DNA of 64,000 nucleotides, taken from positions 18,334 through 82,333 of the forward strand of contig JBIOIZ010000004.1 of assembly GCA_044450385.1 (NCBI GenBank), written 5' to 3'. Each line of letters begins with the position of its first letter. Position 1 is the stretch's first letter. The stretch comes from Candidatus Dormibacteria bacterium (lineage in GTDB: Bacteria; Chloroflexota; Dormibacteria; Aeolococcales; Aeolococcaceae). The notes under the pieces were generated by a model. That model saw only the letters and a list, made by a program, of their open reading frames with translations, did not search any database and was not told the DNA's origin. Shown here in pieces: positions 5,641-36,783 of this stretch. The position numbers and the translations under genes are program-made.

Positions 5641-5655
5641 CCTATATACTATAGG
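5641..5655 (+). promoter_or_regulatory. AT-rich heptad element, site a: CCTATATACTATAGG
   Basis: Immediately after the CoA-transferase stop and ~70 nt upstream of the next start. Member of the recurrent (CCTATAT)x2 motif family. Confidence 0.45.
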
Positions 5656-5724
5656 TGTGGTGATCCTCGTTGGACGACTGCCGCGCACCTGCAGGAGCGT
5701 CGTCCGCAACGGGGAACCGTGGCC

Positions 5725-6423
5725 ATGAGTTCGCCGGGCATGCTGATGGTCTTGATGGAGCCCGCCGCCGGAGAGGAGGCGGCCTTCCACGATTGGTTTG
5801 ACCTCGAACTCGTGCCTGATCACACCCGCGTGGCCGGGTTCCAGGCAGCAACCCGCTGGGTGTGCACCGATGGTTGGCCTCGTTACATGTCGTGCTATGA
5901 CGTCGACCCCTTCGACACGCTGGAGGAAGACGCATATCGCTCGATCACCGGTCAGAATTTCTCCCCGTGGAGCCAGTGGATGCTGTCACGGGTGTTCGGA
6001 CGCCAGCGACTCGTGCTCCGTGAGGTGACCAGCGGTCGCAGACACACTCCGGAAATCGCCTGGGGCCTGGTGATGCTCCGTTTCCGCGGTCATCGCGGCG
6101 CGTCGCTCGAGCGAATCCTCGGCCGCCTCGCGCTGCCCTCAATGTGCCAGGCGCGGGTCTTCGAGACCGCGCGTCGCTCGCAGGAGGAGAGCGCGATCAT
6201 CATCGACGCTCCCGCGGCAGCGCTCATCCCCACCTGGCCGGCCGCCGAGCTGGCTGAGACTCTCGCGGCTGATGCCGCATCGCTGATGGGCGTGTGGCGA
6301 TACGTGCGTTATGTGCGGAGTCAGTCGGTATGGCGCTGGGAGGAGCATGCCTCCGCTGACGCGCGTCGCGAAGCCCCGCCGGCACAGAGCGACGCTCGAG
6401 GTACCGATGACGTCCCTGCCTGA
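5725..6423 (+). CDS. Hypothetical protein (possibly tandem ferredoxin-like/dimeric alpha-beta-barrel fold)
   Basis: ORF 5467..6423. The upstream part overlaps the CoA-transferase, so ATG 5725 (or GTG 5719) is preferred. No confident family match by eye. Confidence 0.55.
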   Translation: MSSPGMLMVLMEPAAGEEAAFHDWFDLELVPDHTRVAGFQAATRWVCTDGWPRYMSCYDVDPFDTLEEDAYRSITGQNFSPWSQWMLSRVFGRQRLVLREVTSGRRHTPEIAWGLVMLRFRGHRGASLERILGRLALPSMCQARVFETARRSQEESAIIIDAPAAALIPTWPAAELAETLAADAASLMGVWRYVRYVRSQSVWRWEEHASADARREAPPAQSDARGTDDVPA

Positions 6424-6859
6424 GCCGTCGCTGTTCCTCCGTGGCGCCTCCCTGACCAGCCTCTCGCGTGGCAACGGCGTGAGCAGCCTCCCATACGTTG
6501 GGAAGTGGAACTCTCGGGTTTCGAGCGTGACGACCGGAATCACTCGAATCCCGCCGGGACAGGGCATTCCGCTCCACACCCACAACGTCGAGGAAACGGT
6601 GCTCGTGCTCGCGGGCGCGGCCACCGTCACGGTTGGCGATGCCGAGATGACGGCTGTCGCAGGTGATGCAACCTGGGTTCCAGCAACGGTGCCGCATCGC
6701 TTCGTCAACGCCGGCACCGAACTGCTCGAGATCTACTGGGTGTACGCGGGACTCCACGTCACACGGACCATATGTGCTACAGGAGAAACCACCGACCACC
6801 TGTCTGGCGGCAACGCCGGGAGTGAACCACCGCGCCATGACGACAAGCGCAACGCCTGA
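6407..6859 (+). CDS. Cupin-domain protein
   Basis: GQGIPLHTHNVEETVLVLAG ... WVPATVPHRFVNAG are the two cupin motifs. ATG 6407 is in frame with ORF 6311..6859. Confidence 0.85.
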   Translation: MTSLPEPSLFLRGASLTSLSRGNGVSSLPYVGKWNSRVSSVTTGITRIPPGQGIPLHTHNVEETVLVLAGAATVTVGDAEMTAVAGDATWVPATVPHRFVNAGTELLEIYWVYAGLHVTRTICATGETTDHLSGGNAGSEPPRHDDKRNA

Positions 6860-8081
6860 GCTGCCGCAGGGGGAAGGTGTCCTGGCGGGGATCCGAGTCC
6901 TCGATCTCGGCCATTTCATTGCAGGGCCATATGCCGCGACCATCCTTGCGGACCTCGGCGCCGACGTCATCAAGATCGAGGACCCCGATCGAATGGACGA
7001 CGCGCGGGCCACCGGTCCGCATTTCCAGGAAGGCGAATCGGTGTACTTCCTCTCGTTGAACTGGGGCAAGCGGTCGCTCGCGGTGCGCATGTCGAGCGCG
7101 CGCGGCCACGCCGTCATGCTTGATCTCGCCCGCTCTGCTGATGTCGTCCTCGACAATTACAAGCCCGGGGTGATGGCCAAGCTCGGTCTCGATCACGAGC
7201 AACTCATGGGTGTCAACCCTCGCCTGGTCACGTGTTCGCTCACGGGCTTTGGTGAGACGGGCAGCCTGTCGGACAGGCCGGGCTACGACTACACAGTCCA
7301 GGCGCTCGCTGGAGCGATGAGCCTCACTGGAGAGCCTGATGGTCCGCCTGCAAAGGCCGGCATCTCCTACGTGGACCACAGTGGGGGCCTCACGGCTGCG
7401 CTTGCGATCTGTGCGGCGCTCGTCGAGCGAGATCGGTCCGGTCGCGGAAGGCACATCGATCTTGGACTGTTCGACACACAGATCTCGATGCTCACCTATC
7501 TTGCCGGTTGGACACTCAACAGCAACGCGCGCCTCGAACGCACGGCCCATTCAGCGCATCAATCCATGGTGCCCGCGCAGAATTTTGCGACCAGTGACGG
7601 ATGGATCTCCGTGTTCGCAGGACACGACCGGAACTGGCAGAACCTCACCCTCGCGCTCAGCGATGGACGCCTCACGGATCCCGCATACGCAACGAGCGCG
7701 GGACGTCTTGCCCACCGCACCGAGGTGCTCGCGCTCATCGCCGAGGATTTCGCCAACCTGACAACTGAGCAATCCATCGAGCTCCTGGTGGCGCGTGGCG
7801 TGCCCTGTGCTCCGCTCAACACGGTGGCGCAGGCACTCGACTCTCCAACCGTCGGCGAGCGGGGCCTGATCCAGGGGATTGACCACCCCCGCTATGGACG
7901 CTTCCGCCACGTGGCCGGTCCCGTGCCGGCGCTCGGCGGCCATTCCACCTCTGGCGCACCGCTCCTCGGTGAGCATTCGATCGACGTGCTTCGGGACATC
8001 GGCTATGAATCCGCCGCGATCGACGAGCTGGTTGAGGACGGCACGGTCATGGCAGCCCAGGCTGCGGAGGTGCGGCCATGA
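6837..8081 (+). CDS. Family III CoA-transferase (CaiB/BaiF)
   Basis: LAGIRVLDLGHFIAGPYAATILADLGADVIKIE. ATG 6837 is in frame with ORF 6663..8081. Confidence 0.9.
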   Translation: MTTSATPELPQGEGVLAGIRVLDLGHFIAGPYAATILADLGADVIKIEDPDRMDDARATGPHFQEGESVYFLSLNWGKRSLAVRMSSARGHAVMLDLARSADVVLDNYKPGVMAKLGLDHEQLMGVNPRLVTCSLTGFGETGSLSDRPGYDYTVQALAGAMSLTGEPDGPPAKAGISYVDHSGGLTAALAICAALVERDRSGRGRHIDLGLFDTQISMLTYLAGWTLNSNARLERTAHSAHQSMVPAQNFATSDGWISVFAGHDRNWQNLTLALSDGRLTDPAYATSAGRLAHRTEVLALIAEDFANLTTEQSIELLVARGVPCAPLNTVAQALDSPTVGERGLIQGIDHPRYGRFRHVAGPVPALGGHSTSGAPLLGEHSIDVLRDIGYESAAIDELVEDGTVMAAQAAEVRP

Positions 8082-9166: not shown

Positions 9167-9976
9167 CTATTCGCTGGAATCGGGAACGTCGACAACGGCC
9201 AGAAGATCGAGGCGCACGTAGTCCTGGTCATACGTCCCATCATCGCGGCGGAGTTCGACGATGGCTCGCGATTCCACGCGCTGTCGGAATTCGGCAGCGT
9301 CGCGTTCGGTCATCGATGCTTCATACGCAATCGAGACCTGGCTTCGCAGCCATCCACGCAGAGCATCCTCGTCAGGAACCGAACGCCGCTGGTGGCGCAG
9401 CGCGGTCCAGCTGCGAGCCTCCGAGAAACCCGCGTCGACGAGCCGCTGCTTGTAGGCGTCGGGCGCTGGAAAGTACCACGGTGGCGTGACGTCGAGCGCC
9501 ATGTCGCTCGCAGTTTCGTCAAGGATCTGGCGAGCTCGAGCGATCTGGCCCTGGCCACCGAACTCGGCTCGGAAGACTCCGTCGGGGCGGAGGACGCCGT
9601 GAATGTGCCGAAGCACCTCCGTATGATCGGCTTCCGGAATCCAGTGCAGGACGGCTGTCGAGACAGCCAGGTCAAATGATCCGATGTCCGCCGTGATGTC
9701 CTGCGCGGCACATTCGACGAAGCGCAGCCGCGGATGGCGGCGGCGCGCCTCGGTGACCATCGAGCTCGACGCATCGATGCCAACGACCTGGCCCTGCGGT
9801 GCCAGTTCGGCAAGCCTCGCAACCAGGTCACCCGTCCCGCACCCGATGTCGAGGATCGAGCTGTGGGACGCGATCTCGAGCGTGTCGAGGAACCCGGCAT
9901 CGAAGCTCCGGTGGTGGGCGCTGTTGGCGCCATAGAGCCCGGCATCCCACCGAATCGACGCTCGCGCTCTCTCCAC
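9167..9976 (-). CDS. Class I SAM-dependent methyltransferase, trans-aconitate methyltransferase (Tam)-like
   Basis: ILDIGCGTGDL SAM motif I. N-terminal W-D-x-x-x-Y pattern and ~270 aa length resemble Tam. Confidence 0.8.
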   Translation of the reverse strand: MERARASIRWDAGLYGANSAHHRSFDAGFLDTLEIASHSSILDIGCGTGDLVARLAELAPQGQVVGIDASSSMVTEARRRHPRLRFVECAAQDITADIGSFDLAVSTAVLHWIPEADHTEVLRHIHGVLRPDGVFRAEFGGQGQIARARQILDETASDMALDVTPPWYFPAPDAYKQRLVDAGFSEARSWTALRHQRRSVPDEDALRGWLRSQVSIAYEASMTERDAAEFRQRVESRAIVELRRDDGTYDQDYVRLDLLAVVDVPDSSE

Positions 9977-9984
9977 CTCGTCGT

Positions 9985-11208
9985 TCAGTTGTTGTCGATC
10001 GTGAACGTGGCCAGCGCATGGTGCTTGGCGGCTTCAAGATCGACGTCGACACCCAGACCGGGTGCGGACGGCGCAGACACGTTGCCGTCCTTGACACTGA
10101 AATCGGCAGGTGCGCTCGAGATCGGGTCGACATCGACGACATTGAGACCCAGGACGAACTCGGCGGCCATCGGCTGGGCGGCGAGCGAGGAATACACGTG
10201 CGCGCAGGCGGCGGCTTCGATGATGCTTCCGTGCGCGACGCCACCGAGGGTTGTCTGCAACCCGGCCGCCTCCGCGAGCGTGGCCATCTGTCTCACGCCG
10301 GAGAAGCCCCCGCTCTTCCAGAGCTTGAGCACAAGCCCGTCGCAACATCCGTGGGCGATGAGCCGCTGAACATCCGAGGCATGAATCGCGCTCTCGTCGA
10401 TGAGCAGCGGTGCAGCGCCCTGCGCGCGCAGGAGTCGCAAGCCCTCATGGTCATCGCGATGCATCGGCTGCTCGACATATGCGACGCGCTCGTCCTCGAG
10501 ACTCCGCACCACCCGCAGCGTGGTGCTCAGGTCGTAGCCCTCATTGGGATCGATGCCGATCTCGACACCGTGGCCGACCTCCGATCGAACCCGCCTGAAT
10601 GTCGCGATGTCTTCCTCCCAGCGAGCGCTCGGCCCCATCTTGAGGCAGATGGTGCGCACTCCGAACTCGGAGACAGCACGAACCGCCTCGGCAACCATGC
10701 TGTCCGGGGGATTCAGCGAGATCGACCAGTCGAGTGGTATCGAACGTCGCGTCCCACCCAGCAAGGCATACACCGGCAACCCGCACGTCTTGCCGACAAG
10801 GTCGTGCAGCGCCATGTCGATCCCGGCGAGGGCAACCGAGTTGGACGGAAGCAGGCGGTTGAGTGCCGGACCGATCAGCTCGCGCTCGAGAGCATTGGCG
10901 CCGATCAACGCCGGGCCGTAGTAATGACGGAGCGCCGCGACGATGCTGTCAGTGGTCTCGCCAAGCCACGGTGTGGGGGGACGCACCTGACCGAAACCGG
11001 CGACACCGTCGGTGCTCTCGACCTTGATCAGCACAGGATCGCCGACCCACGGACGGGCGTCGTCGCCGGCAACCACTCCCTTTGACAATGTGCGCCGGAA
11101 TTTCAACTGCACCTTGAGCGGCATGATCTCGACGCGCCGGATGGTCACTGCGGGGCGCGTTTCCACGCGCTGAGCGGACAGAACGGAGGGTTCGGAGGTC
11201 ACGTGCAT
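9985..11208 (-). CDS. Enolase-superfamily enzyme (mandelate racemase / muconate lactonizing enzyme family)
   Basis: Capping and barrel domain pattern (VEIMPLKV..., ...CLKMG..., IDPNEGY, YVEQP). Start may be GTG 11202, which has better spacing to AGGAG. Confidence 0.9.
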   Translation of the reverse strand: MHVTSEPSVLSAQRVETRPAVTIRRVEIMPLKVQLKFRRTLSKGVVAGDDARPWVGDPVLIKVESTDGVAGFGQVRPPTPWLGETTDSIVAALRHYYGPALIGANALERELIGPALNRLLPSNSVALAGIDMALHDLVGKTCGLPVYALLGGTRRSIPLDWSISLNPPDSMVAEAVRAVSEFGVRTICLKMGPSARWEEDIATFRRVRSEVGHGVEIGIDPNEGYDLSTTLRVVRSLEDERVAYVEQPMHRDDHEGLRLLRAQGAAPLLIDESAIHASDVQRLIAHGCCDGLVLKLWKSGGFSGVRQMATLAEAAGLQTTLGGVAHGSIIEAAACAHVYSSLAAQPMAAEFVLGLNVVDVDPISSAPADFSVKDGNVSAPSAPGLGVDVDLEAAKHHALATFTIDNN

Positions 11209-11255
11209 GCTCCTAAGTGCGAACGCGGTTGTCTGATTGCTGAGAACGATCCATG

Positions 11256-12548
11256 TCAGATCGCCGGCACCGCTTCCACAGTCACCCCCTGCGTGGAGAC
11301 CTCGGCGATCTGACGGAGCAGCAGTGCCGCCACCAGCAGCGTGATCGCGACGGCTGTCCAGGCGATTCGGTACGAGCCGCTGAGATCGACCAGAACGCCG
11401 AATGCAAATGGGCCGCCGAAGATTCCCACCTGGGCGATGGCCATCCCGTATGCAACTGAGCGGCCCCGTTTGTCAGGGGGTGCGATTTCGGAGAGGAGCG
11501 TGATGTACACGCCATTCCACCCGATGATCGTTGCCCCGAGGGCGAACACGATCACGAGCAGCAGAATCACCGGCGTTGATACCGGAATCCACCCGAGGAT
11601 GACGAAGCCGGCGGCTCCGAGGAGACTCACGAGGATGAGGGGACCACGACGCCGTCCCTTGAAGAGGCGATCGCTGATCGTTCCCCAGAACAACCGGCCC
11701 GCGACGCCGCCGGCATTGGCCGCAACGAGAAACCACGACGCCTCCGCCAGCGACATGTGCCACGTTTCGAAGAGGTACAACGCGATGTAGCTGACGAGCA
11801 CGAACTGGCCGAGGGTGAGGAAGATTGCCGCGAGGCCGATGAACGTCGCGTCGTGGGTTGCCACCGCCTTGAACGAGCCGCGGTCGCGACGGATCCTCCC
11901 GCGCGGCTTACTGGGGGCACTGCGCACCAGGGCATAGCCGATCAGCGCGCCAAGAATTGCGAGTCCTGCCGCAACGAACAATGCCTGGCGCCACCCGGCG
12001 GCGATCGCGATCGGTGGAAGGATCAATGCTGCCAGCGCACCGCCGAGCGGAACACCGGCCTGGCGAATGCTCATCACAAACGCGCGGTCGCGCAGGTGAA
12101 ACGCGGAGATGATCGCGGTGCTCCCGGCGGGCGTCGGGGTGGCTCCAGCGAGCCCGATGATGATCAGGAGGGGCAGGAACACGGCAAAGCTCGGGGCGAG
12201 TGCGGTCACCGCAGTGACCAACCCCGCGGCAATGCCACCTGCGACGAGCACTCGCCGCTCTCCGAGAACATCGACCGCCCACCCCGCCGGCAGCAGGGCG
12301 AGCATCGTGCCGAGATTCAGGATGGTGGCGAAGATGCCGATCTCCGGCCGGGTGAGCCCGAGGTCACCTTTTGCGAAGGGCGCCAGTGCCGGGAATCCCT
12401 GGGTCACGATCGAGATGGTCACCTGGATCAGCAGCGCCGACCCGAGAATCCGCCATCGATACTGCTGGGCCCGTGACGAAGGACTTTCGACCGGCGGCTG
12501 CTCGTCTGCTTCGACCTGTGAGGCTCCGGTCGGTGGGGGCACGCTCAT
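11256..12548 (-). CDS. MFS transporter
   Basis: 430 aa with about 12 hydrophobic segments. Start overlaps the stop of the FAD protein (ATGA on the minus strand). Confidence 0.9.
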   Translation of the reverse strand: MSVPPPTGASQVEADEQPPVESPSSRAQQYRWRILGSALLIQVTISIVTQGFPALAPFAKGDLGLTRPEIGIFATILNLGTMLALLPAGWAVDVLGERRVLVAGGIAAGLVTAVTALAPSFAVFLPLLIIIGLAGATPTPAGSTAIISAFHLRDRAFVMSIRQAGVPLGGALAALILPPIAIAAGWRQALFVAAGLAILGALIGYALVRSAPSKPRGRIRRDRGSFKAVATHDATFIGLAAIFLTLGQFVLVSYIALYLFETWHMSLAEASWFLVAANAGGVAGRLFWGTISDRLFKGRRRGPLILVSLLGAAGFVILGWIPVSTPVILLLVIVFALGATIIGWNGVYITLLSEIAPPDKRGRSVAYGMAIAQVGIFGGPFAFGVLVDLSGSYRIAWTAVAITLLVAALLLRQIAEVSTQGVTVEAVPAI

Positions 12549-13969: not shown

Positions 13970-14011
13970 CGACCTCCGATGCGGAAGACGGTAGTCATCG
14001 ACGTGCTTGAG

Positions 14012-17357: not shown

Positions 17358-17459
17358 CAGGCCAAATCCGACGGCCTCAATGAACTGACTGATCTGTGCG
17401 TCCTCCCGCAGCGGTGACGATGAGCCTGCTCACAACGGGGATGAAAGGCATGAAGCCTC

Positions 17460-18851: not shown

Positions 18852-18866
18852 AGAATAGGAAATAGG
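18852..18866 (-). promoter_or_regulatory. AT-rich heptad element, site b2: CCTATTTCCTATTCT (minus strand), overlapping spacer and -10
   Basis: Direct reading; second copy 33 nt downstream of site b1 on the same strand. Confidence 0.45.
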
Positions 18867-18885: not shown

Positions 18886-18900
18886 AATATAGGATATAGG
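18886..18900 (-). promoter_or_regulatory. AT-rich heptad element, site b1: CCTATATCCTATATT (minus strand), just upstream of the -35
   Basis: Perfect tandem CCTATAT CCTATAT, read directly. Confidence 0.5.
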
Positions 18901-26177: not shown

Positions 26178-26268
26178 GTCGAGAGGATCCGTTCTCCGTA
26201 CCGTATGATTGGGCGTCAGTATCGGCTGAGAGGGGCTTCAGGAGCGGAGGAACGCATCATGAATAACC

Positions 26269-27006: not shown

Positions 27007-27032
27007 GTGCCGGCGGAATCGCGGAGGAGCTC

Positions 27033-29190: not shown

Positions 29191-30613
29191 GCAGGCTGAT
29201 CACCTGTCGGACATCACTCTGATGCTCGATGTCGAGGATCAGGTCGGCGGCACGCGACCCCGCCTCGGCGCCGATCCCACCAGCCTCGATGCATTCCATG
29301 AACTTCTCACGGACCTCGGCCTCAGACATGGGGTTCTGCGGGCTTCCCTTCCCGAAGGCAGCTCTCCCCTCGTATGCCGTGCCGTTGCGCAGGCGAATCC
29401 GCACGATGCTCGTCATGTTGTTGTAACCGGCGCCTTCGGCCTCGGGATCGACCTCGAACCTGACGCGCCGCGTCATCTCCCTGACGTCGTTCCGCATCAC
29501 GACCGCATCTGTGAACTCTGCCAGGCCTGCACGCCGCGCGATGCACAGGATGGCCATGCAGAACTCCATGCTGAACTTCGCCGCCAGGTGATCGTGCGGG
29601 TCATGGTGGATCAGCGCGTTGGGCATGTGGCGGTTGGTCCCGACCGAAACCTCCTCGATGTCGGCAGCCTGAATGTCGTGCTTCTTGAGGAGCTCCATGA
29701 GCGCGAACATCGCCGGATGCGTCAGCGAGCCCGACGGATGCGGCTTGATCGAAACACCCGGGGTATCGAACGTCCAGGGCGCGCCGGGAGTGAATGCTGA
29801 TGGCTCGTACCCTCCTCCCGCGGCGCTGAAGAAGCCCCGTCGTGACTCGAGGATGTTGTTCGCAGCAGTGAACCCACGCTGTGCCATCGACGCGGCGAGC
29901 AGACCGCTCTCCGCCGCCCGGCCGGCGTGGAACGGCTTGGTCATCGTGCCGAAGTTCTCGCGAAGACCCGCCGCCTGTGACGCCGCGATGCTCAGCGCGG
30001 CCCTCGTGGCGTCGGGGCTCAACCCCAGGATGGAGGCGGCCGCGGCGCCTGATCCGATCGTGCCGACGGTCCCGGTCGAATGGAAGCCGTCGTCGTAGTG
30101 ACGCGGGTTGATCGCTTCGGAGACCTTGGTTTCAACCTCGACTCCGACCACGTAGGCGAGCAGTACCTCGGCGCCGGTTCTTCCACCCGCCTCTCCGAGC
30201 GCAAGCGCCGTCGGCAACACGGGAGCGGTTGGGTGCGTCAAGAGGCCATACACGCGATCGGGCAGGGTGGCGAGTTGTGTGTCGTCGTAGTCATCCGCAT
30301 GAATCGCCAGACCGTTGAGGAACGCGGCAAATCGGGGGGGCACGCGCAGCGTCGTTCCCAGGGCTGCCGCGTCAGTAGTTGCGCACCGATATGAGCCCAC
30401 CTCGTCTCGAGCAATCTGCGCAGCCTCCGTCCGCGATCCTGCGACAGCGAGACCGAACCCGTCGAGCATGGAATGCTTCGCCGCTGCAAGCGCCGTGGGT
30501 GGCACGTCGGCAAGGCGCGTCCTGCTGATGAATACAGCGGCGTGCTCGGTGGCATCAGTCACGGGGCCGTCCTCCACTCGTTGTAGTCTCGCGTTCGTTG
30601 CCTCCTGGCTCAT
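29162..30613 (-). CDS. MmgE/PrpD-family protein, paralog 2
   Basis: ...GLAIHADDYDDT... . ATG 30613 (MSQEATN...) is preferred over ORF start 30679. The 3' end overlaps the RraA-like gene by 29 nt (convergent). Confidence 0.88.
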   Translation of the reverse strand: MSQEATNARLQRVEDGPVTDATEHAAVFISRTRLADVPPTALAAAKHSMLDGFGLAVAGSRTEAAQIARDEVGSYRCATTDAAALGTTLRVPPRFAAFLNGLAIHADDYDDTQLATLPDRVYGLLTHPTAPVLPTALALGEAGGRTGAEVLLAYVVGVEVETKVSEAINPRHYDDGFHSTGTVGTIGSGAAAASILGLSPDATRAALSIAASQAAGLRENFGTMTKPFHAGRAAESGLLAASMAQRGFTAANNILESRRGFFSAAGGGYEPSAFTPGAPWTFDTPGVSIKPHPSGSLTHPAMFALMELLKKHDIQAADIEEVSVGTNRHMPNALIHHDPHDHLAAKFSMEFCMAILCIARRAGLAEFTDAVVMRNDVREMTRRVRFEVDPEAEGAGYNNMTSIVRIRLRNGTAYEGRAAFGKGSPQNPMSEAEVREKFMECIEAGGIGAEAGSRAADLILDIEHQSDVRQVISLLTSARGSTP

Positions 30614-30682: not shown

Positions 30683-30699
30683 TTAATATAGGATATATT
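30683..30699 (-). promoter_or_regulatory. AT-rich heptad element, site d: AATATATCCTATATTAA (minus strand), between divergent PrpD paralogs
   Basis: Direct reading; abuts the start codon region of the plus-strand PrpD gene. Confidence 0.45.
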
Positions 30700-32182
30700 G
30701 CCGGTGAGCCAAGACGCATCTCCCTCGAACGGGGTTCCGCGACCAACGAGCACCATCTCCGAAGAGCTCGCACGCTGGTCGGTCGGTGTCGGTGCCACTG
30801 ACCTTCCCGCGGACGTCGCCGACGATGTGCGCTGGCGACTCGTCGACCAGGTCGGCGTGTGCATAGCTGGATCACGCTCGGCGTCCGCCGGCATCATCCA
30901 CAGAGTCGCAATGAAGTCAGGTGGCACGCCGGAATCCACGAGCATGGTGTTCGGGAGCCGATTCCCCGCTCCGCTCGCGGGTTGGGTGAATGGTGCTGTG
31001 GGCCACGGTGCCGACTACGACGACATGCATGGCGTCGCCGCCGTCCACATCAGCTCCGTCGCCGTCCCGGCAGCTCTCGCGGCAGCCGAGGCTGTCGGCG
31101 CCACCGGAGCCCAATGCCTGGTGGCGATGGCGACGGGGGCTGAGCTCGCGTTGCGCATCAACACCGGAGCGCCGCCTCACCAGTTTCACCATCGCGGACT
31201 CCATGGCACCGGCGTCGCCGGCCCGTTCGCCGCGGCCGCGATCGCCGCGAAGCTCATGGGCCTCAACGAGGAGGCCACGACCAATGCGCTCGGGATGGCC
31301 GGCAGCAGGTCGTCCGGCCTCATGCAGACGCTGATTGACGGAAGCTGGGTCAAGCAGCTCCATCCCGGATGGGGAGTGCAGGGCGGCATCACGTGTGCGC
31401 AGCTCGCGGCCGAGGGTTTCACCGGCCCGCATGAGGTGATCGAGGGGAAGTTCGGCTTCTTCAATGCGCTCCTGCACGGTGACGAGCAGACCTTTCAGTT
31501 CGATCAGATCACGGACGGTCTCGGTGTGCGGTGGATCCTGCCGGACACGACTTACAAGCCCTGGCCCAACGGCGTGTGGAACCACGCCTCGATGGACGGC
31601 ACCATGGCCATCCTTGGGCGCGAGGGCTTGTCCACCAGCGATGTCGACCGGATCGACTGCTACGTGCCGCCGATCTGCATCCCGCTCGTCTGCGAACCCC
31701 GTGAAGCAAAGCTGAACCCTCGCTCGCTGTATCACATGAAGTTCAGCCTTCAGTACTCCGTGGCCATGCTTGCCGTGCTCGGCTCGGTGGAGGTCGACGA
31801 TTACAACGAGATCACGCTCGCCAACCAGGAGATCCGCGATTTCGCTGCGCGCGTGTATTGCCACGCGGATCCATCGATGGCTCCGGACACCTTCCCCGCT
31901 CGCGTTCGCGTGACGACGGTAGACGGCAGAGTCTTTGAAGAAGACGTGCCGGCCCAGCGCGGCACCAGGCTGAATCCCATGCTGCCGACGGACCATCGGC
32001 GCAAGTTTCGCGGCAATGTCCGTCCGAGCCTTGGCGACGAGCAGACGGACGAATTGCTGACGGCGCTCGAGGGTGCCTGGGACGCGGCCGATGTCCGCGC
32101 TCTCATGGCGCTGACGGTGCCACGCGCCGGTGCCGTGGGCGACGGCATTGCCGCATCGAAGGCCTCGGCCGATGGCCGGTGA
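30698..32182 (+). CDS. MmgE/PrpD-family protein, paralog 3
   Basis: ...VGHGADYDDMH...; 494 aa. Start is TTG 30698 or GTG 30704. Confidence 0.88.
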   Translation: MPVSQDASPSNGVPRPTSTISEELARWSVGVGATDLPADVADDVRWRLVDQVGVCIAGSRSASAGIIHRVAMKSGGTPESTSMVFGSRFPAPLAGWVNGAVGHGADYDDMHGVAAVHISSVAVPAALAAAEAVGATGAQCLVAMATGAELALRINTGAPPHQFHHRGLHGTGVAGPFAAAAIAAKLMGLNEEATTNALGMAGSRSSGLMQTLIDGSWVKQLHPGWGVQGGITCAQLAAEGFTGPHEVIEGKFGFFNALLHGDEQTFQFDQITDGLGVRWILPDTTYKPWPNGVWNHASMDGTMAILGREGLSTSDVDRIDCYVPPICIPLVCEPREAKLNPRSLYHMKFSLQYSVAMLAVLGSVEVDDYNEITLANQEIRDFAARVYCHADPSMAPDTFPARVRVTTVDGRVFEEDVPAQRGTRLNPMLPTDHRRKFRGNVRPSLGDEQTDELLTALEGAWDAADVRALMALTVPRAGAVGDGIAASKASADGR

Positions 32183-33116
32183 GCCGGAGGCGCAGTCACA
32201 TCCGGTCCCGTCAAACCGAGCACGAGAACTACTCCAGGGCGCGTACGACCTCCACGTTCACGTGCTTCCCGATGTGCTGCCGCGTCGCATCGATGACATC
32301 AGCCTGGCGGCCCGGTTCAGTGACCTCGGGCTGGGCGGTTTCGTGCTCAAATCCCACTACACGATGACCGCGGAGCGTGCCGCGCTCGTGCAGGCCGGGT
32401 CCACTGTCGAGGTGATCGGAGCGGTCACATTGAACTGGCCGGTGGGCGGTGTGAACCCGGTTGCGGTAGAGATCTGTGCACGTGCCGGCGGGAGGTTCGT
32501 GTGGCTCCCGACATTCGATTCCATCAACGAGGCGCACGCCGCCGAAGCGGCCGGCCAGGGAAGCCCTCCGGGCTGGCTCAAGCTCAAGAATGCCCTGCAA
32601 GCGAAGGGAATCAGCCCGCCGCCGATCAGGATGGTCGATTCCGATGGAAAGGTTCTCCCCGAGGTCCACACCGTCCTCGAGCTCGTCGCAGAGTACGACC
32701 TCGTGCTCTGCACGGGGCATCTCGGCGGTGAGGAAATTCTTGCCGTGGTCACCGCGGCACAGGAGGCCCGCGTGGAGCGAATCGTCATCACCCACCCTGA
32801 TTTCCCTTCGCAACACCTTGCACCCGAGCAGCAGCGCGAGCTCGGCGACCGCGGGTGTCTTCTCGAGCGATGCTTCGGAACGCCGCATGGCGGGCGCATC
32901 AGCTGGGAGGCGCTGTTCGCGAATGTGCGCGCCGCTGGGACTGAACACTCACTGTTCTCCAGCGATCTCGGCCAGCCTCACAATCCGCCGGTTGAAGATG
33001 GGATGGCGCTCATGGCCGATCGGTTTCTCGATGCGGGCTTCACCGAGAGCGAGGTGCGCACTATGGCGGTGACCAACTCTCGTCGCGTCGTGCCGGCGCT
33101 GGCGCAACGCGGATGA
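32172..33116 (+). CDS. Amidohydrolase-superfamily-like TIM-barrel protein (HxH motif; DUF6282-like by recollection)
   Basis: AYDLHVHVLPD...GFVLKSHY...CTGHLG...ITHPDF resembles a metal-dependent hydrolase pattern. ATG 32172 overlaps the upstream gene end. Confidence 0.6.
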   Translation: MAGEPEAQSHPVPSNRARELLQGAYDLHVHVLPDVLPRRIDDISLAARFSDLGLGGFVLKSHYTMTAERAALVQAGSTVEVIGAVTLNWPVGGVNPVAVEICARAGGRFVWLPTFDSINEAHAAEAAGQGSPPGWLKLKNALQAKGISPPPIRMVDSDGKVLPEVHTVLELVAEYDLVLCTGHLGGEEILAVVTAAQEARVERIVITHPDFPSQHLAPEQQRELGDRGCLLERCFGTPHGGRISWEALFANVRAAGTEHSLFSSDLGQPHNPPVEDGMALMADRFLDAGFTESEVRTMAVTNSRRVVPALAQRG

Positions 33117-34207
33117 CCGGCGAGAGTTCCTCCCCGGTGAGGATCGCCGTGATGGAGGGCGATGACATCGGCCCTGAGATCGTCCGGTCGACGACCCGCA
33201 TTCTCGACCGAGCCGCGAAGCAGCGCGCCGTCGACATCGAGTGGGTGCCGCTGCCCGCCGGGATCGCCGCGGTGGACAGCGAGGGGAGCACGCTGCCGAT
33301 CCGGACGCGGGAGGCGCTTCCGGATATCCCGGGGTGGATTCTTGGGCCCGTCTCTCATCGTGACTACCCCATGGGCGACGCTCGCTATGTGAACCCGAGC
33401 GGCTACCTGCGCAAGAACTTCGAGCTGTACTCGAACGTACGCCCGGCGCGCGGCTGGCCCGGCGTCGAATGCGTGCACCCCGATATGAATGTGGTGATCG
33501 TCCGGGAGAACACTGAGGGCTTCTACGCCGATCGCAATATGCTCGACGGCAACGGCGAGCTCCGCCCCGACCTGGACACGGTGATCTCGGTGCGCCTGGT
33601 CACGAGGCGCGCGAGCATGAGGGTCGCGCGTCAGGCGTTCGCACTTGCTCGCGAGCGTGACGGGCTGCGCAAGGTCACGTGCGTGCACAAAGCCAACGTG
33701 CTCCGACGCGGAGACGGTCTCTTCCTCGAGTGCTGCCGCGATGTCGCGGCAGAGAACCCGGACATCGCGTTCGATGATTTTCTCGTCGATGCCTTCGCGA
33801 TGCGTCTCATCCTGCGCCCCGAGGTGACCGACGTGGTGGTGACCACGAACATGTTCGGCGACATCCTGTCCGACGAGGCGGCCGGACTGGTCGGTGGCCT
33901 GGGTCTCGCACCAGGGTTGAACATTGGTGACGACCACGCCATGGCGCAGGCGGTGCACGGATCCGCCCCCGACATCGCCGGTAAGGGCATCGCCAATCCC
34001 ATCGCCGAGATCCTTTCCGGATCGCTGCTGCTGCGCTGGCTCAGCAGAGTGCACGGACAGCCCGACCTTGTCGCCGCCGCGGACGATGTCGACTCGGCGA
34101 TTGCGACAACGCTCGCATCCGGCGAGACGCGGACGCCCGACCTCGGCGGGACCGCCACCACCGAGGGCATTACGAGAGCCATCCTCGCTGCGCTCGATGG
34201 CGGCTGA
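33113..34207 (+). CDS. Isocitrate/isopropylmalate dehydrogenase-family beta-decarboxylating dehydrogenase, paralog 1
   Basis: RIAVMEGDDIGPEI..., ...TNMFGDILSDEAAGLVGGLGLAPG...; ATGA overlap upstream. Confidence 0.9.
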   Translation: MTGESSSPVRIAVMEGDDIGPEIVRSTTRILDRAAKQRAVDIEWVPLPAGIAAVDSEGSTLPIRTREALPDIPGWILGPVSHRDYPMGDARYVNPSGYLRKNFELYSNVRPARGWPGVECVHPDMNVVIVRENTEGFYADRNMLDGNGELRPDLDTVISVRLVTRRASMRVARQAFALARERDGLRKVTCVHKANVLRRGDGLFLECCRDVAAENPDIAFDDFLVDAFAMRLILRPEVTDVVVTTNMFGDILSDEAAGLVGGLGLAPGLNIGDDHAMAQAVHGSAPDIAGKGIANPIAEILSGSLLLRWLSRVHGQPDLVAAADDVDSAIATTLASGETRTPDLGGTATTEGITRAILAALDGG

Positions 34208-34252
34208 GGATCGTCCGTCGTACCCGTGCGCACCACGATAGGAGGAGAGTCC

Positions 34253-35605
34253 GTGGCCGGACAGTCGCCGCATCTGACGCCTGACGAGGTTCGACGCATC
34301 CAGGAGGCATTCGCGCGCAGGCGGCATCCGGGGAGCTTCGAACCCGGCCGTTGGGCGGTGAGTCCGTACAACCGGGATGCGTCGGTCCTGGGGGCTCGAT
34401 TCCCGGATCACTATCCCCACTCGACGACATTGCGCGACATCACGTTGCGGGTCATCGAGCAGGCGCCAGGCGTCACGGTGGACCGCGCGCAACGCCGGCG
34501 CATCGGCGAGGCGCTCCTCGAAGCGGGCGTTCCCGAGATCGAGGTGTCCGCGCATGGCTGGGGCATGTCCCCCGCGGCGTTGCGTGATGAGGTGACCCAT
34601 CTCAAATCAATACGGCCAGATCTCGGCATCAAGATGGGCGCTACCCAGACCGAAGCGATGGTCGACATCGCCGCCGAGGTGGGCGTGACGCTCGCCGAGT
34701 TCTGGATGCCGGCGCTGCCGGAGGCGACGCCGATCTACTGGTCCGAGGCATATCGCACCTCCTGGGCGGGAGGTGACTGGCGCACGCTGGGCGTGCCCAC
34801 GACGCTCGACCAGGAGATCGAACGCGGGATCCAGCTGATCGCCCGCATCCGGTCACACGGCCTGCGCGCAAGCACCGGCATCAATCTCCTCACCCTTGTG
34901 GACGACAACCACCTCGAGCGCTACTGCACCGCCATGCATGCTGCGGGCGTCGACGAGATCTGGCTCTCGGACGGTGCCGCAGGGATAGCTCCCGAGGGCT
35001 GGAATCACATCGTGTCGATGGTTCGCCGGTACGCACCCGGATGTCGAATCGGCACGTATATCCGAAATGCGTTCGGGCTGGGAGTGGCGTGCGCGCTCGC
35101 CGCTGTGCACGCCGGCGCCGAGGTCACCGAGGTGTCCGTCAATGGAATCTCGGCGACGGCCGGTCAGGTGGATCTCGCACAGATGGCGACGGCCCTCGAG
35201 GTGCTGTATGGGGTGCACACCGGCATTCACCTCGAACAGATGAATTCGCTCGCGCGGCTTGTCGAGGACATCAGCGGTGTGCAGCTCGCTGCCGCACATG
35301 CCGTCACAGGTCGCGGCGCGCACAACTGGGGCGGCACGGAGATCGTCGTCCAGGAACTCAAGGTTGAGCCCCTCCTCCATTGGGCCTACGAGCCTTCACT
35401 CGTCGGCGCCGAGAAGGAGTGGATCGTCAACGGGACCAGCGGTATGTGGACGGTCCAGGACAAGCTGGACCAGCTGGGAGTCAAGGTCGATCGGGAGAAG
35501 ATTCCCCTCATCTGGCAGGAGATCGTCGATGACGCCACCGTGCGTCGCCGCTCCCTGACCGACGACGAGATCCGCGCGATCTGCACCCGGGTCGCCGGCG
35601 GCTAG
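34253..35605 (+). CDS. HMGL-like / DRE-TIM metallolyase (isopropylmalate-homocitrate-citramalate synthase-like) protein with a duplicated active-site motif
   Basis: TTLRDITLRVIEQAPGV...GVPEIEVS resembles DTTLRDGEQSPG...G...IE.G. GTG 34253 sits 7 nt after AGGAGGAG and is preferred over 34226. Confidence 0.7.
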   Translation: MAGQSPHLTPDEVRRIQEAFARRRHPGSFEPGRWAVSPYNRDASVLGARFPDHYPHSTTLRDITLRVIEQAPGVTVDRAQRRRIGEALLEAGVPEIEVSAHGWGMSPAALRDEVTHLKSIRPDLGIKMGATQTEAMVDIAAEVGVTLAEFWMPALPEATPIYWSEAYRTSWAGGDWRTLGVPTTLDQEIERGIQLIARIRSHGLRASTGINLLTLVDDNHLERYCTAMHAAGVDEIWLSDGAAGIAPEGWNHIVSMVRRYAPGCRIGTYIRNAFGLGVACALAAVHAGAEVTEVSVNGISATAGQVDLAQMATALEVLYGVHTGIHLEQMNSLARLVEDISGVQLAAAHAVTGRGAHNWGGTEIVVQELKVEPLLHWAYEPSLVGAEKEWIVNGTSGMWTVQDKLDQLGVKVDREKIPLIWQEIVDDATVRRRSLTDDEIRAICTRVAGG

Positions 35606-35611
35606 CGCGCT

Positions 35612-35626
35612 CGCCTGTCGCAGGCG
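35612..35626. terminator. Short GC hairpin CGCCTG-tcg-CAGGCG between convergent genes
   Basis: Perfect 6-bp stem read directly. There is no U-tract, so it is only a weak bidirectional terminator candidate. Confidence 0.35.
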
Positions 35627-35635
35627 GACGATGGC

Positions 35636-36676
35636 TCAGGTGGGGAGGGCGGCGATCACGGCCTCGGTGACCTCGGAGGTGCCGGCCCTGCCGCCGAGAT
35701 CCGGCGTGAGCGTCTCACCGCGTTCGATGACGAGCGCGACGGCAGCCTCGACGCGCTGCGCGGCATTCACCTCGCCGAGGTGACGGAGCATCATGGCCCC
35801 GCTGAGGATGGCGCCCATCGGATTGGCTACTCCCTGTCCGGCGATGTCCGGCGCCGACCCGTGGACGGGCTCGAACAGCGAGGGATGGCGGCCACTCGGG
35901 TCGATGTTCCCGCTTGCGGCGAGCCCGAGCCCCCCCTGCAGCGCCGCACCGAGATCGGTGAGGATGTCGGCGAACAGGTTCGAGCCCACCACGACGTCGA
36001 CGGCGTCGGGTCGGAGCACCATGCGCGCCGCCATCGCGTCCACGAGGACGCGGTCCAGGACGACGTCCGCATATTCCTGGTGCACCTCCTCGACGACCTG
36101 GTCCCAGAGAACGTAGGTGTACCGGCTCGCGTTGGACTTGGTCACGCTGGTGAGCGAGCCGGAACGCTCGCGCGCACGGTCGAACGCGTACCGCACGGTC
36201 CGATCGATGGCGGCTCGCGTGAACACAGGCACCTCGACGGCGACTTCCAGCGATGTGCCGGTGTGGACGCGTCCGCCGGCGCCCGAGTACTCGCCCTCCG
36301 TGTTCTCACGGATGAAGAGCATGTCGATGTCCTCGGGGCCGCGATCCGCCAGCGGCCCTCGCACTCCGCGAAGCAGGTTGACAGGTCGGACATTGACATA
36401 CAGCTCGAATGCTTTGCGAATCGGCAGCAGCAGTCCCCACAGCGTCACGTGATCAGGGATTTCGGGGACCCCGACGGCACCCAGGTAGATGGCGGCGAAG
36501 TCATCGAGCACTTCGAGGCCGTCGTCAGGCATCATCGCGCCGGTCCGCAGGTAGAGATCAGATCCCCAGTCGAGCTCGTGAAAATCGAGGTCACACACGC
36601 TCGAGAGCACGCGCATCCCGGCAGGCACGACCTCTCTGCCGATCCCGTCTCCGGCGATGACTGCGATCCGCTGCAT
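35636..36676 (-). CDS. Isocitrate/isopropylmalate dehydrogenase-family enzyme, paralog 2 (tartrate/D-malate dehydrogenase-like)
   Basis: MQRIAVIAGDGIGREV..., ...SNLFADILTDLGAALQGGLGLAAS... Confidence 0.9.
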   Translation of the reverse strand: MQRIAVIAGDGIGREVVPAGMRVLSSVCDLDFHELDWGSDLYLRTGAMMPDDGLEVLDDFAAIYLGAVGVPEIPDHVTLWGLLLPIRKAFELYVNVRPVNLLRGVRGPLADRGPEDIDMLFIRENTEGEYSGAGGRVHTGTSLEVAVEVPVFTRAAIDRTVRYAFDRARERSGSLTSVTKSNASRYTYVLWDQVVEEVHQEYADVVLDRVLVDAMAARMVLRPDAVDVVVGSNLFADILTDLGAALQGGLGLAASGNIDPSGRHPSLFEPVHGSAPDIAGQGVANPMGAILSGAMMLRHLGEVNAAQRVEAAVALVIERGETLTPDLGGRAGTSEVTEAVIAALPT

Positions 36677-36764
36677 GCCTCAGATCACCCCTCTGCTGAT
36701 GCCCCGATGGATATCGGCGGCCGCAATGAGTCCGAGGCGTCGGGGACGAAGCTCAGGACTCGAA

Positions 36765-36783
36765 TTTATATATGATATATGAC
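36765..36783. promoter_or_regulatory. AT-rich heptad element, site e: TTTATATATGATATATGAC (reverse complement reads CATATAT CATATAT)
   Basis: Ends 2 nt before ATG 36786 with no Shine-Dalgarno sequence, so a leaderless start is predicted. Also lies upstream of the divergent dehydrogenase gene. Confidence 0.45.

What the first reader, a model, noticed from the sequence alone, without database searches (positions are those of the whole stretch)
5641..36783. Recurrent AT-rich tandem-heptad element (CCTATAT)x2 at five promoter regions: candidate shared operator or regulon signature
Six copies were read directly. Site a is 5641-5655, CCTATAT ACTATAG G. Site b1 is 18900-18886 (minus), CCTATAT CCTATAT T. 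Site b2 is 18866-18852 (minus), CCTATTT CCTATTC T. Site c is 19010-19024, CCTATAT TATATGT G. Site d is 30699-30683 (minus), AATATAT CCTATAT TAA. Site e is 36765-36783, whose reverse complement reads CATATAT CATATAT. All copies are intergenic and sit at the 5' ends of transcription units: the hypothetical/cupin/CoA-transferase unit, the Liv-type operon, the FAH-hyuAB operon, the divergent PrpD pair, and the divergent dehydrogenase/lyase pair. In DNA of ~66% GC, 13-17 nt of nearly pure A/T with a common phase is unlikely by chance. Sites c and e abut start codons that lack Shine-Dalgarno sequences, which suggests leaderless transcripts. Sites b1 and b2 bracket a canonical TTGACA-17-TATTCT promoter at a 33-nt spacing. 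Inference: one regulator, or one promoter class, coordinates much of the island. Which regulator is unknown. The element is a direct repeat, which is unlike typical GntR or IclR palindromes.
Basis: partly seen in the sequence, partly recalled or inferred. Interest (0 to 1): 0.65.

Follow-up and report, generated by a model that had tools for sequence, protein, structure and literature searches.

The report
Shared operator of a catabolic island
A short palindromic TATA-N3-TATA sequence recurs at the promoters of an organic-acid catabolism gene island in an uncultured soil bacterium (Dormibacterota); it is most likely the docking site of the island's own GntR-type repressor, which is an ordinary kind of local gene switch with an unusual all-A/T recognition sequence.

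Summary
The useful description is an 11-bp palindrome, TATA-N3-TATA, rather than a direct heptad repeat. There are four exact copies (a, b1, d, e), one copy with one mismatch (c) and one degenerate copy (b2). Shuffles predict 0.00 exact copies in the window, and every exact copy is intergenic. The window comes from a Candidatus Dormibacterota genome. In relatives at about 79% DNA identity the sites stay invariant while the surrounding spacer has diverged. In distant relatives (regulator 46-54% identical) an exact copy lies upstream of the FAH-hyuAB-citE-CoA-transferase-GntR operon in all six lineages where that region could be read. Over nine loci (196 kb) there are 13 exact copies against 0.31 expected, all in the 8% that is intergenic. 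Every transcription unit that carries the FCD-type GntR gene is preceded by a site with at most one mismatch. The site overlaps the -10 box of leaderless promoters in some lineages and lies downstream of near-consensus -35/-10 pairs in others. That behaviour fits an operator. The regulator replaces the guanine-reading arginines of FadR with Gln and Ile. Best reading: operator of the island's GntR repressor (about 0.6). Main rival: a symmetric -10 promoter element with no dedicated factor (about 0.2). No binding or transcription-start data exist. This is a new member of a known kind and of moderate interest.

The parts
5643..5653 (.). Site a: exact palindrome CC-TATA-TAC-TATA-GG. It lies 71 nt upstream of the hypothetical/cupin/CoA-transferase/SnoaL unit (5725-9147, + strand).
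   Evidence: No substitution occurs between 5637 and 5661 in variant metagenome contigs that are about 94% identical (weak support).
18888..18898 (.). Site b1: exact TATAGGATATA. It starts 7 nt upstream of the -35 hexamer of the liv promoter, and its centre is near -48.
   Evidence: Invariant in L001, L002, L004 and L005.
18854..18864 (.). Site b2: degenerate copy AATAGGAAATA (2 mismatches). It overlaps the -10 box TATTCT (18857-18852, minus strand).
   Evidence: Conserved with one change in L002.
18852..18880 (-). Promoter-like site of the liv operon: TTGACA-17-TATTCT (10 of 12 matches).
   Evidence: The block is invariant in alignment A1.
19012..19022 (.). Site c: TATATTATATG (1 mismatch). 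It ends 4 nt before the GTG 19027 of FAH. It is embedded in the promoter-like site CTGACA-17-TATATT (18989-19017).
   Evidence: It is an invariant island in alignment A1. Orthologous FAH promoters carry exact copies.
30687..30697 (.). Site d: exact AA-TATA-GGA-TATA-TT between the divergent PrpD paralogs (ATG 30613 on the minus strand, GTG 30704 on the plus strand). The left half is the -10 box of a minus-strand promoter-like site, TTGGCT-16-TATATT.
   Evidence: The same 11-mer occupies the orthologous position in L016 and L021.
36769..36779 (.). Site e: exact TATATGATATA between the isocitrate/isopropylmalate-type dehydrogenase (ATG 36676, minus strand) and the PEP-mutase/isocitrate-lyase-family gene (ATG 36786, plus strand). 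It ends 6 nt before that ATG.
26269..27006 (+). Candidate cognate regulator: a GntR wHTH plus FCD domain protein, encoded inside the FAH operon that starts at site c.
   Evidence: PF00392 6.4e-17, PF07729 6.2e-21. (recognition helix GVSIIPVRE; Gln56 and Ile66 at the positions of FadR Arg35 and Arg45).
19027..29190 (+). Regulated unit: FAH, hyuA, hyuB, CitE/HpcH-like lyase, CoA-transferase III, GntR, PrpD-like, RraA-like.
   Evidence: Synteny is conserved in L014, L016, L017, L021, L023 and partly in L025.
9167..18728 (-). Regulated unit (inferred extent): Liv-type ABC transporter livKHMGF, then FAD oxidoreductase, MFS transporter, MR/MLE enolase-superfamily gene and methyltransferase.
   Evidence: Operon extent is inferred from gene spacing only.
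29162..30613 (-). Regulated unit: PrpD-like paralog with a Shine-Dalgarno sequence (GGAGG) and a leader of about 65 nt.
30704..35605 (+). Regulated unit: PrpD-like, DUF6282, Iso_dh, HMGL-like.
   Evidence: Synteny in L016 and L021.
35636..38902 (.). Divergent pair at site e: Iso_dh (35636-36676, minus strand) and PEP_mutase/ICL plus Iso_dh (36786-38902, plus strand).

Best explanation
The element is the operator of the island's own FCD-type (FadR/VanR-subfamily) GntR regulator (26269-27006). A GntR dimer is proposed to bind the inverted repeat MM-TATA-N3-TATA-KK, one winged helix-turn-helix per TATA half-site. At the FAH, PrpD-pair and dehydrogenase/lyase promoters the operator overlaps the -10 box and the start point of leaderless or near-leaderless mRNAs, so bound protein would exclude RNA polymerase. 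At the liv promoter a strong site (b1) sits just upstream of the -35 hexamer and a weak one (b2) lies over the -10 box. An unknown organic-acid effector, presumably the pathway substrate or an intermediate, would bind the FCD domain and release the DNA. That would switch on transport and catabolic genes together. Because the GntR gene lies inside the FAH operon, the circuit would be negatively autoregulated. What is shown: the sequence, its non-randomness, its conservation, its association with the regulator gene, and its position relative to promoter-like hexamers. What is inferred: protein binding, repression, the effector and the transcription starts.
For: (1) Non-random and promoter-specific. 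There are 4 exact copies against 0.00 expected. Over nine loci (196 kb) there are 13 exact copies against 0.31 expected, and all lie in the 8.1% that is intergenic (Poisson P about 3e-17). (2) Footprints. In L002 and L005 (about 79% nt identity) the spacers have diverged, but b2-TTGACA-b1, c, d and e remain invariant islands. (3) Orthologous promoters keep the frame. Exact copies lie upstream of FAH in L014, L016, L017/L018, L021, L023 and L025, which is 6 of 6 distant lineages. Exact copies also lie between the PrpD pair in L016 and L021. The central N3 varies at the FAH sites. (4) Association with the regulator. In all 11 lineages the transcription unit that contains the GntR gene is preceded by a site with <=1 mismatch. 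This includes loci with a different gene context: L024, L020, L022 and L025. The minimal conserved unit (L017/L018) is the motif plus FAH-hyuAB-citE-CoAT-GntR, and the only other regulator-like gene called there is a GerE/LuxR-type fragment on L018 alone. (5) The position relative to core promoter elements varies while the internal structure does not. The site is inside the -10 box in L023 (TTGACT-16-TATTCT-6-ATG) and at site c. It lies downstream of 11/12-match promoters in L024 (TTGACA-17-TAAAAT, then three TATAs in 7-bp phase) and in L020. It lies upstream of the -35 hexamer at b1. (6) Not a generic promoter feature. There is no hit at <=1 mismatch in about 16 other regions upstream of genes in the window, including four divergent ones. 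There is none in L006, and none in L003 or L007, whose GntRs have the canonical GVSRTP(V/I)RE helix. (7) Protein logic. The clade has an invariant G-V/A-S-I-I-P-V-R-E in most of the 120 listed homologs. FadR Arg35 and Arg45, which make specific contacts to guanine, align with Gln56 and Ile66, and FadR Thr47 aligns with Pro68. In the FadR subfamily, Arg at HTH position 28 avoids A/T, Pro at position 40 avoids G/C, and Gln in general prefers A (PMC4494728). McbR (PDB 4p9f) has GMSITPVRE and is reported to bind an ATATAT-containing motif (PMC13343897). (8) The 4-N3-4 geometry equals the FadR-subfamily consensus TKGT-N3-ACMA (PMC4494728).
Against: There are no binding data and no transcription-start data. 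The only runs labelled RNA behave like DNA assemblies. At c, d, e and most FAH orthologs the motif contains the likely -10 box, so conservation there is partly explained by the promoter itself. All distant loci were retrieved through the GntR protein, so co-occurrence is partly by design, and FAH operons without the GntR could not be examined. Negative controls are few, at about 80 kb. L020 and L022 have only 1-mismatch sites, and two of those in L022 contain a plain TATAAT. A position at -48 (b1) is unusual for a simple repressor. The motif lacks the GT/AC signature that defines most GntR operators. The 91-bp gap directly upstream of the GntR gene has no site.
Confidence: 0.6

Rival explanations
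1. The element is a pure promoter feature. It would be a symmetric -10 region (TANNNTA inside TATA-N3-TATA) that lets the housekeeping RNA polymerase start in both directions and produces leaderless mRNAs. No dedicated transcription factor would be involved, and the shared look would reflect a class of strong promoters.
For: Core positions 3-8 on the plus strand and 9-4 on the minus strand both read TANNNT. The predicted starts are then 18 bp apart, which is the commonest spacing at bacterial bidirectional promoters (PMC12825309). Sites b/c, d and e lie between divergent genes. Start codons without a Shine-Dalgarno sequence follow the core by 3-6 nt in the window, L014, L017, L023 and L025. 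The promoter scan places -10 hexamers inside the motif.
Against: Eight positions are fixed, including T1, A2, A9, T10 and A11, which a -10 hexamer does not require. The register of the best -10 box within the motif differs between sites (positions 1-6 at c, 3-8 in L023, 8-13 in L025b). In L024 and L020 near-consensus -35/-10 pairs lie wholly upstream of the motif. Site a and the sites in L017 and L018 are not between divergent genes. Other promoter regions of the same genome, including four divergent ones, lack the motif.
Confidence: 0.2
2. The element is an operator for a different DNA-binding protein encoded elsewhere in the genome, such as a global regulator or a nucleoid protein that prefers A/T. 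It would not be the operator of the island's GntR.
For: No direct link between protein and DNA was tested. The motif lacks the GT/AC core typical of the GntR family (PMC4494728). All-A/T sites attract many proteins.
Against: The motif follows the GntR clade across different gene contexts and across GC contents from 56% to 72%. Apart from a GerE/LuxR-type fragment on L018, no other regulator was called in those loci. The IclR of the window has its own candidate box. The recognition residues of the GntR fit an A/T-only half-site (PMC4494728).
Confidence: 0.12
3. The GntR is an activator, or has a dual function. It would bind b1 at about -48 to recruit RNA polymerase to the liv promoter, as the FCD-family activator CitO does, while repressing or not affecting the other sites.
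For: The centre of b1 is near -48 relative to the TTGACA-17-TATTCT promoter-like site, a typical class I activator position. CitO is an FCD-family activator (PMC4746285, abstract).
Against: Most sites overlap the -10 box or the start point, or lie just downstream of it. Those are repressor positions. The liv promoter hexamers are already close to consensus. A b1-like site is absent upstream of livK in L014, L016 and L021.
Confidence: 0.06
4. The similarity is a chance or compositional artefact of A/T-rich intergenic DNA in a GC-rich genome.
For: Intergenic DNA is more A/T-rich than coding DNA, and -10 boxes add TA-rich hexamers.
Against: There are 13 exact copies against 0.31 expected under a mononucleotide model, which is conservative. 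Dinucleotide-preserving shuffles give 0.00. The positions are conserved in orthologous promoters of lineages whose proteins are only about 50% identical.
Confidence: 0.02

Closest known systems
FadR-subfamily (FCD) GntR repressors and their operators (FadR, PdhR, LldR, DgoR, GlcC)
   Same: The domain architecture is the same: GntR wHTH plus FCD. The operator is a palindrome with two 4-bp boxes separated by 3 nt, matching TKGT-N3-ACMA (PMC4494728). The regulator is co-localised with catabolic and transport genes for organic acids, and it is autoregulated.
   Different: The half-site is TATA and has no G/C, so the family's GT/AC signature is missing. The guanine-reading Arg35 and Arg45 of FadR are Gln and Ile here. 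The operator doubles as, or overlaps, the -10 box of leaderless promoters.
BioR (FCD-type GntR of alpha-proteobacteria; operator TTATMKATAA)
   Same: It is a FadR-subfamily regulator whose operator is an A/T-only palindrome outside the GT/AC consensus (PMC4494728).
   Different: The geometry differs (4-2-4 against 4-3-4), the half-site differs, and so do the regulon (biotin) and the taxon. No sequence relationship was tested.
NanR of E. coli (FCD-type; (GGTATA)3 repeat operator)
   Same: The repeat units contain TATA and are bound by an FCD-type GntR, with several dimers on phased repeats (PMC8012715). L024 shows three TATAs in 7-bp phase, and b1 and b2 form a pair.
   Different: The NanR units are direct GGTATA repeats that contain G. 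Here the core is G-free and symmetric. Cooperative multi-dimer binding was not tested here.
McbR/YncC of E. coli (VanR-type FCD GntR, PDB 4p9f)
   Same: It is among the closest solved relatives (E 2.3e-18). It shares Ile at the FadR Arg45 position (GMSITPVRE). It is reported to bind an ATATAT-containing motif at A/T-rich sites (PMC13343897).
   Different: McbR binds many sites across the genome and senses folate-related ligands. Here the regulon is local and catabolic, and the 11-bp palindrome is well defined.
Bidirectional sigma-70 promoters with a shared symmetric -10 element (Warman, Grainger and colleagues)
   Same: TANNNTA is embedded in the core, the predicted divergent starts are 18 bp apart, and three of the four regions lie between divergent genes (PMC12825309).
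   Different: The symmetry here extends over 11-15 bp. The element also occurs away from -10 positions and between co-directional genes, and it is restricted to loci that carry one regulator clade.

Membership tests
GntR superfamily, FadR/VanR (FCD) subfamily regulator | N-terminal GntR-type winged helix-turn-helix (PF00392) | tested here: met
   E 6.4e-17, residues 34-92.
GntR superfamily, FadR/VanR (FCD) subfamily regulator | C-terminal all-helical FCD effector domain (PF07729) | tested here: met
   E 6.2e-21, residues 102-225. The closest solved structures are FCD-type GntRs.
FadR-subfamily operator | Palindrome with two 4-bp boxes separated by 2-3 nt | tested here: met
   TATA-N3-TATA at 13 exact sites. 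Consensus geometry is from PMC4494728.
FadR-subfamily operator | Conserved GT/AC dinucleotides (TKGT/ACMA boxes) | tested here: not met
   No G or C occurs in the half-sites. Known exceptions in the subfamily are BioR and NanR (PMC4494728).
FadR-subfamily operator | Co-localisation with, and autoregulation of, the regulator gene | tested here: met
   In 11 of 11 lineages a site with <=1 mismatch precedes the transcription unit carrying the GntR gene.
FadR-subfamily operator | The protein binds the site and an effector releases it | not testable with these tools
   This needs EMSA, DAP-seq and ligand screening.
IclR-family operator (for the IclR at 372-1235) | The motif co-occurs with the IclR gene | tested here: not met
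   No IclR is among the called genes of L014, L016, L017, L021, L023, L024 or L025, all of which carry the motif. A separate IclR-like box lies at 3013-3027.
Bidirectional sigma-70 promoter | Symmetric shared -10 element (TANNNT on both strands) | tested here: met
   This holds by sequence for core positions 3-9 of every exact site.
Bidirectional sigma-70 promoter | Divergent transcription starts about 18 bp (or 10 or 23 bp) apart | not testable with these tools
   No usable RNA data were found.
Leaderless-mRNA promoter | No Shine-Dalgarno sequence, and a -10 box ending 6-8 nt before the start codon | tested here: inconclusive
   The geometry fits at c, e, L014, L017, L023 and L025b. The register at d is ambiguous. 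Transcription starts are unmapped.

The most novel reading that the evidence does not exclude
The operator and the -10 box may be the same DNA. This clade of FCD-type GntR regulators (recognition helix S-I-I-P-V-R-E, related to McbR) would have evolved to read an A/T-only palindrome that is itself a symmetric, bidirectional -10 element of leaderless promoters. One dimer would then compete directly with sigma factor for the melting region and switch both divergent transcripts at once. That would be a compact promoter-equals-operator logic, conserved across Dormibacterota and Chloroflexota-like lineages.
Probability: 0.3. Interest if true: 0.55.

Novelty: new member of a known kind. Interest (0 to 1): 0.36.

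Why it matters
Almost nothing is known about gene regulation in Dormibacterota, an uncultured soil and permafrost phylum. A literature search for the phylum name together with 'promoter' found only two papers, neither about its promoters. This finding gives a concrete, testable regulon: one FCD-type GntR, five to six operators and about 35 genes, covering a Liv-type transporter and enzymes that look dedicated to an unidentified branched or hydroxylated di- or tricarboxylic acid. It also adds a well-supported case of a FadR-subfamily operator with no G/C. A matching change in the two guanine-reading residues makes it useful for specificity rules in the GntR family. Finally, it gives sequence-level support for leaderless transcription in this phylum.

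Tried and rejected
(1) RNA evidence. Two run searches found only X3, X17 and X18, labelled 'METAGENOMIC RNA-Seq'. Laid on 17.5-37.5 kb, they show flat depth across genes and spacers and contigs of up to 75 kb. They behave like DNA and give no start-site information.

(2) L006, whose GntR is 80% identical, has no motif. It turned out to be a decayed or rearranged copy of the island in which every promoter region that carries the motif is deleted. It is therefore uninformative rather than contradictory.

(3) L009-L013, L015 and L019 are short contigs internal to the operon and contain no promoter region.

(4) Rfam found nothing in the window, and nothing meaningful in the liv/FAH spacer.

(5) The IclR as the regulator was rejected (see the membership test).

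(6) Direct-repeat heptads as the unit were rejected in favour of the palindrome, although the 7-bp phasing is real. L024 has three TATAs in phase.

(7) Population variants at site a show no change between 5637 and 5661. At about 6% divergence this is not significant.

(8) A literature search for this gene cluster found nothing.

Full report
OBSERVATION. The six sequences are present as written. Aligned on their common part, they are copies of an 11-bp inverted repeat, TATA-N3-TATA. The copies are: a 5643-5653 TATATACTATA; b1 18888-18898 and d 30687-30697, both TATAGGATATA; e 36769-36779 TATATGATATA; c 19012-19022 TATATTATATG (one mismatch); and b2 18854-18864 AATAGGAAATA (two mismatches). The flanks decide the matter where they are informative: CC..GG at site a and AA..TT at site d are inverted. 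A palindromised count over nine independent sites gives MM-TATA-K-N-M-TATA-KK, with all the information in the two TATA boxes.

STATISTICS. The exact pattern occurs 4 times in the window against 0.00 expected from dinucleotide-preserving shuffles. With one mismatch allowed it occurs 7 times against 0.10 expected. Intergenic DNA is 8.5% of the window, yet it holds all exact hits and 6 of the 7 hits at <=1 mismatch. About 16 other regions upstream of genes carry no hit at <=1 mismatch. Four of these are divergent regions that must contain promoters: 3010-3104, 44420-44763, 47544-48035 and 54160-54454. All sites lie between 5.6 and 36.8 kb.

CONTEXT. Pfam scans give the following map.
- IclR (372-1235).
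- AtuA on the minus strand, divergent from HpcH-MaoC-CoA-transferase (3105-5639).
- Site a.
- Hypothetical, cupin, CoA-transferase and SnoaL genes (5725-9147).
- A minus-strand block running from a methyltransferase through MR/MLE, MFS and FAD genes to livFGMHK (9167-18728).
- Sites b2, b1 and c.
- FAH, hyuA, hyuB, CitE-like, CoA-transferase, GntR(FCD), PrpD-like and RraA-like (19027-29190).
- PrpD-like on the minus strand.
- Site d.
- PrpD-like, DUF6282, Iso_dh and HMGL-like (30704-35605).
- Iso_dh on the minus strand.
- Site e.
- PEP-mutase/ICL-family and Iso_dh (36786-38902).
The regulator's closest relatives come from Candidatus Dormibacterota MAGs: OY970355.1 at 95% protein identity and a palsa MAG at 81%.

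CLOSE RELATIVES. Loci L001, L002, L004 and L005 are collinear with 16-37 kb of the window; L004 is 91% identical in DNA and L002 and L005 are 79% (L001 was not measured). All four keep b1, c, d and e letter for letter. In the 79% relatives the spacer between b1 and c and the DNA upstream of d and e have diverged heavily. The block b2-TTGACA-b1, site c, site d and site e stand out as invariant islands (alignments A1-A3).

DISTANT RELATIVES. Homologs of the GntR at 41-54% identity were located on contigs.
- The FAH-hyuAB-citE-CoAT-GntR operon is present in L014, L016, L017/L018, L021, L023 and in rearranged form in L025. An exact TATA-N3-TATA lies upstream of FAH in 6 of these 6 lineages. The central triplet differs: AAT, TAT, TTC, TAT, TTC, ATC.
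- L016 and L021 also carry TATAGGATATA between their divergent PrpD pair, the same 11-mer as site d.
- Where the GntR is the first gene of a different operon, a site lies directly upstream of it. L025 has an exact site 34 nt before the start. L024 has two overlapping exact sites, that is three TATAs in 7-bp phase. L020 (a Roseiflexus MAG) and L022 have one-mismatch sites. L022 has five such sites, all intergenic, and two of them share ATAGTTTATAC.
- Over nine loci (196 kb) there are 13 exact copies against 0.31 expected under a conservative mononucleotide model. All 13 lie in the 8.1% that is intergenic.
- Loci L003 and L007 were fetched through more distant GntRs (34% identity) that have the canonical GVSRTP(V/I)RE helix. 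They have no hit.

RELATION TO PROMOTERS. A consensus scan finds promoter-like sites at the following places.
- liv: TTGACA-17-TATTCT. b2 lies over the -10 box and b1 starts 7 nt upstream of the -35 hexamer.
- FAH: CTGACA-17-TATATT, with the -10 box in the left half of site c.
- Site d: TTGGCT-16-TATATT on the minus strand.
- L023: TTGACT-16-TATTCT occupies core positions 3-8 and is followed after 6 nt by the FAH ATG. That is a textbook leaderless arrangement.
The start codons of FAH (GTG 19027), of PrpD3 (GTG 30704) and of the lyase-family gene (ATG 36786) follow the core by 4, 6 and 6 nt and have no Shine-Dalgarno sequence. The divergent partners PrpD2 and Iso_dh have GGAGG or GAGGGG and leaders of 65-90 nt. 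By contrast, L024 and L020 have near-consensus promoters (11 of 12 matches) that lie wholly upstream of the motif, and the motif then covers the expected start point. In L016 and L021 the FAH gene has acquired a leader of about 56-59 nt with a Shine-Dalgarno sequence, yet the motif is unchanged. The internal structure of the element is therefore fixed while its register relative to the core promoter hexamers moves. This is how operators behave and not how -10 boxes behave.

WHICH PROTEIN. The FCD-type GntR is the only regulator that travels with the motif. No IclR is called in any distant locus. The window's IclR has its own candidate box, the perfect palindrome TGGAATAGTATTCCA at 3013-3027 in the divergent region next to it. 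That box is a lead only, because nine perfect 7-1-7 palindromes occur in the window.

The GntR clade has a nearly invariant DNA-reading segment, LGVSIIPVRE..L..LE..GLV.I.PRRGA.V. Most of the 120 listed homologs have S-I-I-P or a close variant where the family consensus has S-R-T-P. The E. coli FadR N-terminus was verified against PDB 1HW1 and aligns without gaps. FadR Arg35 aligns with Gln56, Arg45 with Ile66, Thr46 with Ile67 and Thr47 with Pro68.

In the FadR-DNA complex both arginines make specific contacts to guanine. Across the subfamily, Arg at HTH position 28 strongly prefers G/C and avoids A/T, Pro at position 40 avoids G/C, and Gln in general prefers A (PMC4494728). Losing both guanine readers fits a half-site without G. 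McbR is one of the closest solved relatives and also has Ile at the Arg45 position. It is reported to bind an ATATAT-containing motif (PMC13343897). The subfamily consensus, TKGT-N3-ACMA, has the same 4-3-4 geometry. A/T-only exceptions (BioR) and TATA-containing exceptions (NanR) are already known (PMC4494728, PMC8012715).

MECHANISM PROPOSED. A GntR dimer would sit on each palindrome. At c, d and e it would cover the -10 box and the start point, and it would block initiation in one or both directions. At liv, a strong site upstream of the -35 hexamer and a weak site on the -10 box may act together. An organic-acid effector would release the protein. Because the GntR gene is inside the FAH operon (its start overlaps the preceding gene in L014, L016 and L021), the circuit would be negatively autoregulated. 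Binding, the sign of regulation, the effector and the transcription starts are all inferred.

RIVALS. The strongest rival is that the element is only a symmetric -10 region. TANNNTA is embedded in the core, and the predicted divergent starts are 18 bp apart, the commonest spacing at bidirectional promoters (PMC12825309). This probably describes part of the truth at c, d and e. It does not explain five observations: the fixed outer positions, the variable register, the sites outside -10 positions, the sites between co-directional genes, and the absence from other promoters of the same genome. A different, unlinked DNA-binding protein and an activator role at b1 remain possible. Chance is excluded.

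LIMITS. All distant loci were reached through the GntR protein, so the association cannot yet be contrasted with operons that lack the regulator. Control DNA amounts to only about 80 kb. No RNA or binding data exist. The conservation of site a could be checked only weakly.

VERDICT. The element is best filed as the operator of a local FadR/FCD-type GntR regulator with an atypical, G/C-free recognition sequence that overlaps leaderless promoters. It is a new member of a well-known kind of system, found in a phylum where regulation is otherwise uncharted.

Noticed in passing
window 3013-3027: The perfect 7-1-7 palindrome TGGAATAGTATTCCA lies in the divergent region between AtuA (minus strand) and HpcH-MaoC-CoA-transferase (plus strand), next to the IclR gene. 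It resembles E. coli IclR/AllR boxes (recalled from memory). It is a candidate IclR operator for an itaconate- or mesaconate-like CoA pathway. Nine perfect 7-1-7 palindromes exist in the window, so it is not significant on its own.
   Followed up: partly
window 18729-18850 (minus strand): The roughly 115-nt leader of livK is almost invariant in relatives at 79% identity, while the neighbouring spacer has diverged. It is predicted to form a long hairpin (-39.8 kcal/mol for the consensus), but only one pair shows a compensatory change. It has no Rfam match. It could be a regulatory RNA leader.
   Followed up: partly
L006 (CABDZJ010000039.1) 5900-17200: This is a decayed or rearranged copy of the island. 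It holds fragments of the AtuA, cupin, CoA-transferase and PrpD genes, and intact IclR, GntR, PrpD, RraA and citrate synthase genes. Every promoter region that carries the motif is deleted. The cause is either genome reduction or assembly chimerism.
   Followed up: partly
window 30639-30651: The block CATGGTACG.CCG is conserved in the diverged relative L002. It lies upstream of site d, inside the presumed leader of the minus-strand PrpD gene. It is unexplained.
   Followed up: no
window 52846-52874: The A/T-rich near-palindrome AGAAATGTAACATATGTTTCATAACCTTT lies at the junction of the ChrB_N-domain gene and the MFS gene. It is unrelated to the TATA-N3-TATA motif.
   Followed up: no
window 27033-38902: This one island holds three PrpD/MmgE paralogs and three isocitrate/isopropylmalate-dehydrogenase paralogs. 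It also holds RraA-like, HMGL-like, PEP-mutase/ICL-like, FAH and HyuAB genes. The set suggests catabolism of an unidentified branched or hydroxylated polycarboxylic acid. No literature on this cluster was found.
   Followed up: partly
runs X3, X17, X18 laid on window 17501-37500: Runs whose library is described as 'METAGENOMIC RNA-Seq' give flat coverage over genes and spacers and contigs of up to 75 kb. They behave like DNA assemblies.
   Followed up: yes
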